Positions 42,049-51,252 of a DNA stretch of 64,000 bases are shown in pieces. A model generated the notes under the pieces. That model was not told the origin of the DNA, did not search any database, and saw nothing but the letters and a program-made list of their open reading frames with translations. Source of the DNA: the human T2T-CHM13v2.0 reference genome, Homo sapiens; the NCBI RefSeq assembly GCF_009914755.1, contig NC_060929.1; one strand, written 5' to 3'. A program made the translations under genes and the position numbers. How positions within the stretch are numbered: the first letter of the stretch is position 1; each line of letters begins with the position of its first letter.

Positions 42049-46199
<4,151 letters not shown>

Positions 46200-47460
46200 T
46201 AGTTTCAATCTTGATTTTCTTCTCAGTAGAACTTGCATAACTAATAATGTGGTTTTTGAAGTTGACTCTTCATTGCTTAAAATATCGACTAGCTTGTTAT
46301 GTCCTGTGAAGTATGTCTGAGTAGCTTGGACTTCTTGAATCACACATCTTTGAAATCTGATTAAAATACTTTTATAGTTGGGCATACACAATTTTACAGG
46401 TGGTTTCAGGAGTTACACAGATCCCTTTTAACTCCCCTCTACAAGGGTTTTACAGAGGTAAGTAAGACAGTATATAGGGATCACAGGGAATGCTTTAATT
46501 TTTTTCTCAGTGATAGTTTAAAGCATCATTTTATGCTGTTTTGGATGTCTCTCCTGTTCTTTTTTTAATGTTTTATTTTAAATAATCGTTCTTGCTATCA
46601 CATCTCTGCTCTCGAGATTTTTAATTTAGTGGTAGAGAAACACATGGAAAGAAATACTACTTTAAAAAGGTACAGATAGTATGCTGTGGGAATGTGGAAG
46701 AAGGATAAATTATGACTGGAGGGCTAAAGGAAGACTTCACATAATTGGTTTTTTGAAGAATGAAGTGAATTTTGATAAGACAAATAAGAAAGTAGGGAAT
46801 GCCATGCCAAAGGAATAGCATGTACAAAGATACAAAATATTAGCAGTTGACAGTGTGGAGTATTGGAGTTGTTTGGTGTGAATTAAAATGTTGGGTGTTT
46901 AGAATTACATAGTGAGAAACAAAGCTAAGAAGGTTAGTATGGGGAAATAGTATGGCGAGATGGGGAGGCCAGGAGGGGAGTGGTAGTCTTAGGTTTTTCC
47001 CTTATGTAGCCCCTTGTTTTAATTTTAAAAATGGAAAGGATATGATAAATATAAGAAATAGAAAAATAAAAAATAGAACAGTTAAACAGGACACGAGTGT
47101 AAGATTTTCAATAGCAGTGACTTTCACACAGGGCAGAGCGTAATAGCTGGCTCTATCAGGATGAGAATTCAACATATAGAAAACTATGGAGCAGAATTTT
47201 CCTGCTTGAAGGTCTCCAATATAATACCAACTAGTAGAAAGCTGTGTTTCACCGGTAGTAGATTTGTTTTTACCTTGGTATCATAATTTAAGAGTTTTTC
47301 TTTTAAGTTGCAGGTATATTAATTAATTTTAGGTTTCTGTGCTACTCTTTTCCCATCCTTGGAAGTCTCTTTACGCCAGAAATTCATTTAATTCTTAGTT
47401 TTTGATGATGACACACTTAATTTTATATGTTAAAGAGTTTAACTGTCCACCCTTTTTCAG

Positions 47461-47538
47461 ATGCTGGTGAGTGTAATAAGCGAGATAATACATCCACAAT
47501 GGGTGGTTTTGGAGTTGGAAAGAGTTTTGGAAACAGAG
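47461..47538 (+). CDS. DDX4: DDX4 exon 5: (D)AGECNKRDNTSTMGGFGVGKSFGNR
   Basis: CTTTTTCAG acceptor, GAG|GTAATT donor, 78 nt, phase 1-1. Also visible within ORF 47427..47609. Confidence 0.96.
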
Positions 47539-48299
47539 GTAATTACTTGGTTATGATATCTTACAATCAAAACTTGAGTGATTTTTTAATAATTGAGTTT
47601 AAATACTGATTGACAGACATTCCATATTGACATTTAATTTCAAGGTATATATTCTGTGAGTGCCTTTGCACTAAAGATTATCTTATTAAAACTTATTAAA
47701 AACATTTTTTAATTTTATGAAAGATTACTGATGAATGCTTTTAAAATTAATTCTAGAGACATGTCTGTATGCTTCAGAGATGCATAACTCTTAGACATAG
47801 GTTTTTAGGAAATAAGTTTGAAAGCAAAACTTGACGACTTTTTAAAAAAGAGTAAACAAAAAGAAGCTAACAAGATTTTCATGTTATTGAGGAGAAAATC
47901 ATTGAGTTATTGGGTTATAATTTAGTTGTATTGTCCTTAGCAGATGAAGAGATTGAGTTTGTAAAATTTTGAGAATTTTGATGGTTTTAAATAGAAAACA
48001 TATAGTGGTTACACTGACATATTCCTCTGTTTTGCCCATGTGCATACAGAGGAGTATATGACAATTGAGGTAATACAGAATTGGCTGAAAAGAAAGTTGT
48101 TTTTAACCTTAAGAGAATGGAGTTGATAAACTGACACAAAGCAGAAATTGTTGTACAGCCTGAGTGAATTTGCATGTGATAGCTATGTATACAATTGTGT
48201 ATCGCTTATCTTAGAAGGCATCATAACTAGTAGTTCCTGTGTGGTTATCATTTTTACCACAGAGGTACAGGAAATTGTTTCATTTTATATTTTGTATAG

Positions 48300-48350
48300 G
48301 TTTTTCAAACAGCAGGTTTGAAGATGGTGATAGCTCTGGTTTCTGGAGAG
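48300..48350 (+). CDS. DDX4: DDX4 exon 6: (G)FSNSRFEDGDSSGFWR
   Basis: TTTGTATAG acceptor, GAG|GTAAGG donor, 51 nt, phase 1-1. Confidence 0.96.
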
Positions 48351-49723: not shown

Positions 49724-51215
49724 GGATTGAATTCATTCATTGTCTCAGTTGTTAGCAAGCCCAAGTTCTGAGCTCACGGTAGAAGCTTTTTACTCTGGAC
49801 ACAAATGGATAGTATGTTTTTAAATTTTTTTCCCCTGTCATCTACTTTGCTTAAGCTGGTATATTGTAGTGATAAGGAACTCAGATACTGGATTTGAACA
49901 CGTAGGTGTGAGACTCAGATCCTCCTCCTGGCAATTGTATTATCTTGAAAAAGCCTGTAACTTTCTGCTTTTCATTTTCTCTATTTGTATAATGATGACT
50001 ATATCTACTTCACAAGGTTTTTGTGAAACTTTAGACTAAAGTTAATACATGTGATACATTTAGAACACGGCCAGGTACATACTTTATGTGTTGTTATTAT
50101 TATTTTTCGAGACGGAGTCTCGCACTGTCACCTGGCCTGGAGTGCAGTGGTACAGTCTTGGCTCACTGCAACCTCTGCGTCCAGGGTTCAAGTGATTCTC
50201 CTGCCTCAGCCTCCTGAGTAGCTGGGATTACAGGGGCCCGCCATCACGCCCGACTAATTTTTTTTTTTTTTTTTTTGTATTTTTAGTAGAGACGGGGTTT
50301 CGTCACGTTGGCCAGGCTGGTCTCAAACTCCTGACCTCACGATCTGCCTGCCTCGGCCTCCCACAGTGCTAGGATTACAGGCATGAGCCACTGCGCCAGG
50401 CCATATGTTATTTTTGTATAATTAATAGGTTGTAACTAATCTTGGTATCATTATCTCATTTTTGTTTGTGCTTAGCTTTATTTCCTAACTGTATAGAGAT
50501 CACTTATTTTTTAAAGTAATTTTTTATTTTGAAATAGTTTTATTCATAAGAAGTTGCAAAAATAGTACAGAGGTTTTTCATGTACCCATCACCCAACTTC
50601 TCTTAATGTTTTCTATTTTTATTCCCACTGTGATCAAAATAACTGTAGGTTTATTTTAGGGAAATAATTGGCCAAAGATATTGTGAGACTCTTTCCCTTG
50701 CCAGGTCCCAGATTAGTAGTTTTGTTTTTTTTTTTTTTTTCTCGAAAGCAGTAAATATTAGTTATCATCATTGTTATTCCAGGGCCAACTTTTCAAAACT
50801 TATTTCTTTCCTGCCCTTCTACATTGTATTAAGTCCTGCCTTCCAGAAAGTTGTCTTGTTAATGGCTCTTCAGGATTGTTTGTCAGTTGTCAGCTGCAGC
50901 TGAAATAGGAGACTGCAACAAGAGCTTTGGGTCACTGTTTATTGTAGAACATTATTAGTTGTTAAATGGATTGGGACTTTCACACAGGAACTTAGCTAAT
51001 AACCTGCAAGCTGTTTGGTCACTTGCTGTCATTATTTTGACTTAATGTTCCCAGATATTAAATATTAATGATATGTACAAAGATCCCTTGAAACCATCTT
51101 TGTATTCCCAAATGTGACTTTTTTTGGAATCTTCTGGAAAGCCTGATGTCATAGTAATAACATAGAACTTTTACATTTCGAAAAATCATTCCTTTCAGAA
51201 TAAACATTTCTGGGA

Positions 51216-51252
51216 ATGGGGTCTAGGAATTTATTTTTAACCAACTCTCCAG
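51216..51252 (+). CDS. DDX4: Candidate alternative first coding exon of DDX4 (MGSRNLFLTNSP), in frame with exon 7
   Basis: ATG at 51216, 37 nt to the CAG|GTAGTT donor; phase 1 matches the exon 7 acceptor. Matches my recollection of a short DDX4 isoform N-terminus (not verified). Confidence 0.6.

What the first reader, a model, noticed from the sequence alone, without database searches (positions are those of the whole stretch)
46400..46457. Candidate fossil or poison DDX4 exon in intron 4: frameshifted sibling of the GF-aromatic-R modules
Seen: ATTTTACAG|GTGGTTTCAGG...GGGTTTTACAGAG|GTAAGT, a 58-nt segment with an AG acceptor and a perfect consensus donor, ending AGAG|GTAA exactly like exons 4, 5 and 6. 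Read in phase 1 it gives G-G-F-R-S-Y-T-D-P-F-stop (TTT TAA). Removing one T from the T4 run at 46426-46429 gives a 57-nt symmetric exon GGFRSYTDPFNSPLQGFYR, strikingly like exon 6 (GFSNSRF...SSGFWR). It is not in a recognisable repeat. Inference: a once-coding IDR module inactivated by a 1-nt insertion, or a retained NMD-inducing poison exon regulating DDX4.
Basis: partly seen in the sequence, partly recalled or inferred. Interest (0 to 1): 0.75.

Follow-up and report, generated by a model that had tools for sequence, protein, structure and literature searches.

The report
Unused look-alike exon inside DDX4 intron
A 58-base stretch in intron 4 of the human germ-cell helicase gene DDX4 looks like a broken extra copy of the neighbouring small coding exons, but nothing found here shows that it is used, so it is best read as a silent relic or a chance look-alike.

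Summary
The sequence is as described. Window 46400-46457 is 58 nt, bounded by ttttacag| and |gtaagt. Read in the phase left by exon 4 it gives GGFRSYTDPF and then TAA. A second frame gives NSPLQGFYR up to the donor.

The resemblance to the DDX4 module exons is rarer than chance. Of 364 donor-like sites on the DDX4 strand, only exons 5 and 6 and this segment end in [G/S]F-x(0-2)-R in the right phase. None of 1126 control sites does. Composition-preserving peptide alignment is not significant (best p 0.087, against exon 6).

No evidence of use was found:
- None of the 7 RefSeq transcripts includes it (hub table).
- 0 of 97 placental DDX4 isoforms with a recognisable exon-4 end carry such a peptide.
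- No truncated reading frame ends in it.
- There is no retrocopy.
- Three literature searches found nothing.

It is single-copy and showed no repeat origin.

Best reading: a decayed sibling of the GF...R exons, now a silent pseudoexon (0.45). Chance look-alike: 0.33. Regulated poison exon: 0.07. Vertebrate genome alignments and RNA-seq junction data could not be reached, and they would decide.

The parts
46400..46457 (+). 58-nt pseudoexon. The first frame (phase 1 after exon 4) gives GGFRSYTDPF then a stop. The second frame from 46430 gives NSPLQGFYR.
46380..46399 (+). Candidate 3' splice site gggcatacacaattttacag. It has 9 of 18 pyrimidines at -20..-3, the lowest among exons 2-7 (10-17 of 18).
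46376..46377 (+). Upstream AG, 22 nt before the candidate acceptor. It narrows where a branch point could lie. TTTAT with its A at 46374 is the only yUnAy-like site I could see by eye (inference).
   Evidence: inference
46429..46431 (+). In-frame TAA reached when the segment is read after exon 4. It overlaps the last T of the T4 run 46426-46429.
46458..46463 (+). Candidate 5' splice site GAG|GTAAGT. It matches CAG|GTAAGT at 8 of 9 positions, as good as or better than the donors of exons 2-7 (6-8 of 9).
44486..44563 (+). DDX4 exon 4 (78 nt, ends NFGNR, ACAGAG|gtaagc). It is a paralogue of exon 5.
   Evidence: hub table; (D2)
47461..47538 (+). DDX4 exon 5 (78 nt, GGFGVGKSFGNR at its end). Its GTGGTTTTGGAGTT resembles the first 15 nt of the pseudoexon.
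48300..48350 (+). DDX4 exon 6 (51 nt, GFSNSRFEDGDSSGFWR). It is the closest real exon: it starts with GF directly after the acceptor and ends GF-aromatic-R.
   Evidence: (D12)

Best explanation
The segment is a decayed member of the series of small phase-1 exons (exons 4-7) that encode the GF/RG-rich disordered N-terminus of DDX4. That series arose by exon duplication. This copy no longer codes: it is 58 nt instead of a multiple of three and has a TAA in phase. It is now a pseudoexon that the spliceosome normally skips. I infer that a weak acceptor (half purines, with an AG 22 nt upstream) and a CU-rich core help keep it out, despite a near-perfect donor. If it is occasionally spliced in between exons 4 and 5, the mRNA carries a stop codon many exon junctions upstream of the last one. 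By the established 50-55-nt rule such an mRNA should be removed by nonsense-mediated decay, which would be splicing noise and not regulation. Shown here: the anatomy, the stop codon, the rarity of the pattern, and absence from annotated transcripts and from placental proteins. Inferred: common descent with the module exons, the time of death (before the placental radiation, or never fixed as an exon), and the present skipping.
For: Anatomy and stop codon. Pattern rarity, first test: of 546 YAG...GTRAG pseudoexons of 30-120 nt on the DDX4 strand, only this one and real exon 6 combine a GF start with a [G/S]F-x(0-2)-R end. In 304,938 control bases (1993 pseudoexons), 40 have the start, 0 the end and 0 both. 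Pattern rarity, second test: of 364 donor-like sites in DDX4, six end F-x(0-2)-R in phase. These are exons 4, 5 and 6, this segment, and two sites with stop codons. Among 1126 control sites the figure is 2, and 0 for the [G/S]F form. The 10-mer ACAGAGGTAA occurs three times in 79 kb of DDX4 (exon 4, this segment, exon 5) and once in 305 kb of controls. Local DNA similarity was tested with 2000 shuffles: p 0.013 to exon 5, 0.004 to exon 6 and 0.006 to exon 7. Against 1407 intronic windows, the fractions scoring at least as high were 0.044, 0.014 and 0.004. Exons 4 and 5 are old duplicates (D2; 0 of 3000 shuffles), so duplication did build this array. Not in use: no RefSeq transcript (hub table), 0 of 97 placental isoforms, and no truncated reading frame.
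Against: Peptide alignment of the read-through against exons 4-7, with composition-preserving shuffles, is not significant: p 0.81, 0.24, 0.087 and 0.17. That test also fails to link real exon 6 to exons 4, 5 or 7, so it has little power. DNA similarity is confined to GGTTT-type Gly-Phe codons and the splice-site neighbourhood. The middle 24 nt match nothing. The pattern tests were designed after the fact, on a segment picked by a reader scanning 64 kb. No open orthologue was found in any species sampled. The sample was 117 mammalian DDX4-like entries among the 120 listed, 13 frogs and 150 unnamed representatives. Flanking intron shows no similarity to the flanks of exons 5 or 6.
Confidence: 0.45

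Rival explanations
1. Chance pseudoexon. Ordinary intronic sequence happens to carry an AG, a strong GT donor and two Gly-Phe codon pairs. It never coded and is not used.
For: Pseudoexons are abundant: 546 on this strand. Peptide-level similarity is not significant. No orthologous peptide turned up anywhere. The 24-nt middle has no similarity to any exon. The segment was picked by eye, and my tests were built after seeing it. The second frame being open over 58 nt is not rare.
Against: The phase-correct [G/S]F..R end at a donor-like site was found 0 times in 1126 control sites. Combined with a GF start it was found in 0 of 1993 control pseudoexons. The segment also sits inside the 2.9-kb intron between the two duplicated module exons.
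Confidence: 0.33
2. Functional poison exon. Regulated inclusion in germ cells introduces the TAA and sends DDX4 mRNA to nonsense-mediated decay, setting the DDX4 dose.
For: In-phase TAA far upstream of the last exon junction. The donor matches the consensus at 8 of 9 positions, as good as or better than all neighbouring real donors. There is a usable YAG|G acceptor. Intact splice sites around a diverged core are what selection on splicing alone would leave.
Against: No RefSeq transcript uses it (hub table). No truncated reading frame ending in its peptide exists among proteins of 30-379 residues matching the DDX4 N-terminus; 6 were found, none with it. The acceptor is the weakest of those compared. 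Searches for DDX4 with 'poison exon', with 'cryptic exon', and with 'nonsense-mediated decay' plus 'cassette exon' gave nothing on it (listings only). The protein database is a poor detector of NMD isoforms, so this absence is weak evidence.
Confidence: 0.07
3. Exonised fragment of an old interspersed repeat (MIR-like). The TTTTACAG and AGGTAAGT motifs would be repeat-derived and the Gly-Phe codons incidental.
For: Only my recollection that the MIR core holds similar motifs; this is a lead, not a test. An Alu-like element lies 200 nt upstream, so the intron does hold repeats.
Against: I built an nhmmer profile from 30 genomic copies fetched by a recalled 19-nt motif. That motif had 1827 exact genomic matches and 0 for the reversed control. 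The profile found three places elsewhere in the window (E 1.6e-06, 0.0016 and 0.058). It found none at 46250-46650, even at E up to 1000 with filters off. The own-genome search found a single copy. The profile is crude, so an old degraded copy could escape it.
Confidence: 0.05
4. Recursive-splicing-type site. The CU-rich tract 46421-46442 plus AG|GTAAGT at 46456-46463 would act as a joined 3'/5' splice site during stepwise removal of intron 4.
For: AG directly followed by GTAAGT, with a pyrimidine-rich stretch and a TTAAC branch-like motif 26 nt upstream (read; inference).
Against: Intron 4 is only 2897 nt, whereas by my recollection recursive splicing in vertebrates is described for very long introns. 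AGGTAAGT occurs twice in the part of DDX4 inside the window. No data were available.
Confidence: 0.02

Closest known systems
DDX4 exon 6 (window 48300-48350, GFSNSRFEDGDSSGFWR)
   Same: It is a small exon entered in phase 1, with GF directly after the acceptor. It ends GF-aromatic-R with AGAG|GTAAG. The 3' ends match at 14 of 18 nt (D12). The size class is similar (51 against 58 nt).
   Different: Exon 6 is 3n, open, and present in nearly all listed mammalian isoforms. The pseudoexon is 3n+1, has a TAA in phase, appears in none, and its middle part is unrelated.
Exons 4 and 5 of DDX4 (duplicated 78-nt modules ending FGNR)
   Same: Same last ten bases with donor (ACAGAGGTAA), and the same phase. 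The first 15 nt of the pseudoexon resemble GTGGTTTTGGAGTT in exon 5.
   Different: Exons 4 and 5 are demonstrably paralogous: 78% identity over 40 nt and 0 of 3000 shuffles. The pseudoexon is not demonstrably so (p 0.81 and 0.24).
Poison (NMD-inducing) cassette exons of RNA-binding-protein genes (recalled class, such as those in SR-protein genes)
   Same: An intronic cassette with an in-frame stop codon that would trigger nonsense-mediated decay if included.
   Different: Known poison exons are defined by observed, regulated inclusion and usually by strong conservation. Neither is shown here, and neither could be tested.
Intronic pseudoexons or decoy exons (general class)
   Same: It is bounded by consensus-like splice sites yet absent from annotated mRNAs. 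546 candidates of this kind lie on the DDX4 strand.
   Different: This one also carries phase-correct motifs of the host gene's own exon family, which none of the 1993 control pseudoexons did.
42-nt cassette of orang-utan DDX4 isoform X5 (maps to window 44866-44907)
   Same: Another small phase-1 segment in intron 4 that ends AGAG|GT and lies between exons 4 and 5.
   Different: That one is open, is a multiple of three, and is annotated as coding in one ape. It has no GF motif. In human the dinucleotide before it is AA, not AG.

Membership tests
DDX4 N-terminal GF/RG module exons | Symmetric phase 1-1 exon whose length is a multiple of three | tested here: not met
   The segment is 58 nt; exons 4, 5, 6 and 7 are 78, 78, 51 and 60 nt.
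DDX4 N-terminal GF/RG module exons | Open reading frame in the phase left by the preceding exon | tested here: not met
   TAA at 46429-46431 after ten codons.
DDX4 N-terminal GF/RG module exons | Ends in F-x(0-2)-R followed by G|GT in phase | tested here: met
   LQGFYR + G|GTAAGT. This is shared only with exons 4, 5 and 6 among open sites in DDX4; the control rates are 2 of 1126 for F..R and 0 of 1126 for [G/S]F..R.
DDX4 N-terminal GF/RG module exons | Sequence similarity to other modules beyond composition | tested here: inconclusive
   DNA local scores give p 0.004-0.013 to exons 5-7. Peptide shuffles give p 0.087-0.81. That test also fails for real exon 6.
DDX4 N-terminal GF/RG module exons | Encoded peptide present in DDX4 proteins of some species | tested here: not met
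   0 of 97 placental isoforms with a recognisable exon-4 end. No match in 287 stored proteins apart from the word GGFRS in three unnamed representatives. No named marsupial, monotreme or sauropsid DDX4 was retrieved.
Poison exon (NMD-coupled cassette) | Premature stop codon more than 50-55 nt upstream of the last exon junction on inclusion | tested here: met
   Stop codon in the segment, with exons 5-22 downstream (hub table). The rule itself is established knowledge.
Poison exon (NMD-coupled cassette) | Actually included in transcripts, and more so when NMD is blocked | not testable with these tools
   No RNA-seq access. Indirect evidence: none of the 7 RefSeq transcripts (hub table), and no truncated reading frame among 6 short N-terminal proteins.
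Poison exon (NMD-coupled cassette) | Splice sites and exon conserved across species | not testable with these tools
   No vertebrate genomes other than the window's own are held (output).
Repeat-derived (MIR/Alu) exonisation | The segment aligns to a repeat family | tested here: not met
   Single copy. The MIR profile gave no hit. The Alu-like match ends at 46194. The profile is home-made, so sensitivity is limited.

The most novel reading that the evidence does not exclude
A former coding module of the DDX4 phase-separating tail was converted by a one-base change into a conserved NMD-coupled poison exon. Germ cells would use it to tune VASA/DDX4 dosage. That would be a case of an IDR exon recycled as a regulatory switch in a core germ-line gene.
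Probability: 0.06. Interest if true: 0.6.

Novelty: new member of a known kind. Interest (0 to 1): 0.2.

Why it matters
The N-terminal tail of DDX4 drives formation of germ granules through regularly spaced FG/GF and RG motifs. Mutating nine conserved phenylalanines abolishes droplet formation (PMC4352761; passages read). Its small exons are duplicated and are skipped in various species (PMC3720182; passages read).

A recognisable dead module would document gain and loss of exons in this tail and would help date it. If the segment were instead a used poison exon, it would be a previously unnoticed control point of VASA dose. It would also be a place where variants that strengthen its weak acceptor might lower DDX4 expression, which bears on interpreting variants in infertility. 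On present evidence it is a minor annotation curiosity.

Tried and rejected
I then fetched the rest of the gene and used a 90-residue helicase exon.

3. MIR origin was a lead from memory only. A profile from 30 fetched copies gave no hit at the segment, so I rejected it, with the caveat that the profile is crude.

4. Self-similarity of 46330-46560 against 102 kb of the locus gave only T-rich matches downstream of the donor.

5. The search of 50%-identity representatives gave 150 unnamed proteins. A 9-mer BLOSUM scan of both halves had top scores of 28 and 27, in unrelated contexts.

6. A frog DDX4 N-terminus used as query found 13 proteins, all from frogs, so it gave no route to marsupials or sauropsids. 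Frog GFNNE[NT]S[SG]F units share the GF-x6-F spacing of the first half, but weakly.

7. A search for short proteins matching DDX4 residues 1-69, aimed at truncated reading frames from transcripts that include the segment, gave 6 proteins and none with it.

8. A DDX4 retrocopy that might have preserved an old isoform does not exist for the N-terminus.

9. Rfam on intron 4 gave only Alu-like and Alu-derived miRNA-model matches at 45911-46194.

10. A second exon-5-like stretch at 46850-46871 (D7) has no splice-like ends and I dropped it as chance.

11. The paper on marsupial and monotreme DDX4 (doi 10.1095/biolreprod.111.091629) is not held.

Full report
**Observation**

The window holds DDX4 exons 1-7 (hub table). 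At 46400-46457 there is a 58-nt segment preceded by aattttacag and followed by gtaagtaag. Exon 4 ends in phase 1.
- Read in that phase, the segment gives GGFRSYTDPF and then TAA at 46429-46431.
- From 46430 a second frame gives NSPLQGFYR plus one base, up to the donor.
- Its last six bases with the donor (ACAGAG|GTAA) are the same as in exons 4 and 5. Exon 6 ends GGAGAG|GTAAGG.

'One T fewer opens the exon' is true but is not by itself remarkable. The second frame is open across the whole segment, so any single-base loss before the TAA would open it.

**Splice-site quality**

The donor GAG|GTAAGT matches CAG|GTAAGT at 8 of 9 positions. Exons 2-7 score 6-8 of 9. The acceptor has 9 of 18 pyrimidines at -20..-3, the lowest of those compared; the real exons have 10-17. 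An AG lies 22 nt upstream. The core of the segment is CU-rich. I infer, without a test, that the weak acceptor and this core help keep the segment skipped. MaxEnt and SpliceAI scores could not be computed here.

**Is it a repeat?**

- A 261-nt query found only itself in the 3.1-Gb own genome.
- Sensitive blastn against 102 kb of the locus gave nothing but T-rich matches downstream.
- Rfam on intron 4 found Alu-like matches, below the gathering score, at 45911-46194 on the minus strand. That is 200 nt upstream and does not overlap.
- From memory, the TTTTACAG and AGGTAAGT motifs reminded me of the MIR core. I fetched 30 genomic copies through a recalled 19-nt motif (1827 exact matches; 0 for the reversed control) and built an nhmmer profile. 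The profile found three places elsewhere in the window and none at the segment, even at E up to 1000.

A repeat origin is not supported, within the limits of a home-made profile.

**More than chance?**

AG...GT pseudoexons are common. I counted 546 YAG...GTRAG candidates of 30-120 nt on the DDX4 strand. What is unusual is the phase-correct motif at both ends.
- Only two of the 546 start with GF within four codons and also end with [G/S]F-x(0-2)-R. They are real exon 6 and this segment.
- In 304,938 control bases (upstream region, minus strand of the gene, 30 unrelated loci), 1993 pseudoexons gave 40 with the start, 0 with the end and 0 with both.
- With a looser donor definition (at least 6 of 9 matches), 364 sites in DDX4 gave six F..R ends. 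These were exons 4, 5 and 6, this segment, and two sites with stop codons. Among 1126 control sites, 2 had an F..R end and 0 had the [G/S]F form.
- The 10-mer ACAGAGGTAA occurs three times in DDX4 (exon 4, this segment, exon 5) and once in the controls.
- Local DNA alignment to exons 5, 6 and 7 gave shuffle p-values of 0.013, 0.004 and 0.006. It gave nothing to exons 3 or 4.
- The repeat finder paired the 3' ends of the segment and of exon 6 on its own (14 of 18; D12).

Against this, semi-global peptide alignment with composition-preserving shuffles is not significant: p 0.087 to exon 6, and 0.17-0.81 to the others. The same test detects exon 4 against exon 5 (0 of 3000 shuffles) but fails to link real exon 6 to any other module, so it has little power. 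All pattern tests were framed after the segment had been singled out. I put common descent with the module exons at roughly even odds.

**Does any species use it as coding sequence?**

No vertebrate genome other than the window's own is held, so I used protein databases.
- A 90-residue helicase exon of the same gene retrieved 1765 proteins at E up to 1e-20, of which the best 120 were listed. Nearly all were placental DDX4 isoforms: primates, rodents, lagomorphs, carnivores, camelids, goat, pig and whales.
- Of the 120, 97 have a recognisable exon-4 end. Of these, 88 continue directly into a known exon and 9 carry other residues. None has anything like the segment's peptide.
- A search of 1.84 billion 50%-identity representatives gave 150 unnamed relatives. 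Scanning all stored proteins with both halves gave only noise. Of eleven 5-residue words, only GGFRS occurs, in three unnamed representatives.
- A frog N-terminus found 13 proteins, all from frogs.

No named marsupial, monotreme or sauropsid DDX4 came up in any search. That is the main gap. An exon lost before the placental radiation could still look like this in human, because the human lineage has diverged only modestly since then (my own knowledge).

**Is it used as a non-coding cassette?**

- None of the 7 RefSeq transcripts includes it (hub table).
- A search for proteins of 30-379 residues matching DDX4 residues 1-69 was meant to catch truncated reading frames of transcripts that include the segment. 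It returned six proteins, none ending in the segment's peptide. This is weak evidence, because such databases rarely hold NMD isoforms.
- No DDX4 retrocopy exists that could have frozen an old isoform.
- Literature searches gave nothing on this exon; I saw listings only. DDX4 with 'poison exon' returned 20 papers, and the 10 listed concern other DDX genes. DDX4 with 'cryptic exon' returned 2. DDX4 with 'nonsense-mediated decay', 'cassette exon' and 'testis' returned 1.

**Context**

Exons 4 and 5 are clear duplicates: 78% identity over the last 40 nt plus donor, 2975 nt apart (D2). N-terminal exon skipping is reported in cattle, tammar, zebrafish, mouse and human (PMC3720182; passages read). 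GF/FG and RG spacing in this tail is conserved and is needed for droplet formation (PMC4352761; passages read). A dead extra module in this array is thus plausible on general grounds.

**Verdict**

The most likely reading is a decayed sibling of the GF...R exons that is now a silent pseudoexon (0.45). Any stray inclusion would place a stop codon far upstream of the last junction and, by the established rule, lead to nonsense-mediated decay. A chance look-alike is nearly as likely (0.33). A regulated poison exon is possible but unsupported (0.07). Repeat-derived (0.05) and recursive-site (0.02) readings are minor, and about 0.08 is left for readings not listed. The decisive data are a cross-vertebrate alignment of this position and junction reads in germ-cell RNA with and without NMD. 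Neither could be obtained with these tools.

Noticed in passing
window 44866-44907 (+): Orang-utan DDX4 isoform X5 (P0009) has 14 extra residues between exon 4 and exon 5. tblastn places them here in human, 12 of 14 identical and open. The segment ends AGAG|GTGAGA, like the module exons. The human dinucleotide before it is AA and not AG, so human probably cannot use it. The orang-utan DNA was not seen.
   Followed up: partly
window 45911-46194 (-): Alu-like element in intron 4. It gave two Metazoa_SRP model matches below the gathering score, plus Alu-derived miRNA-model matches. It lies 200 nt upstream of the pseudoexon, antisense to DDX4.
   Followed up: no
window 44528-44567 and 47503-47542 (+): The last 36 nt of exons 4 and 5 plus GTAA are 78% identical and lie 2975 nt apart. 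Both exons are 78 nt, and their peptides align with 0 of 3000 shuffles reaching the score. This is an old tandem exon duplication.
   Followed up: partly
window 46850-46871 (+): A 22-nt stretch matches the GGFGVG-coding core of exon 5 at 17 of 22 positions, but it has no splice-like ends. Probably chance.
   Followed up: partly
proteins P0095, P0097, P0102, P0113, P0120 (felids); P0070, P0071 (bears): Felid DDX4 isoforms replace exon 5 with an unrelated 17-19-residue cassette (DSSPVAPSK...). Bear isoforms read 13 residues past the exon-5 donor. Lineage-specific cassettes are common in this part of the gene.
   Followed up: no
window 51171-51252 (+): The alternative first exon listed by the hub holds an ATG (MGSRNLFLTNSP...). 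It matches the N-termini of short primate isoforms (P0011, P0020).
   Followed up: no
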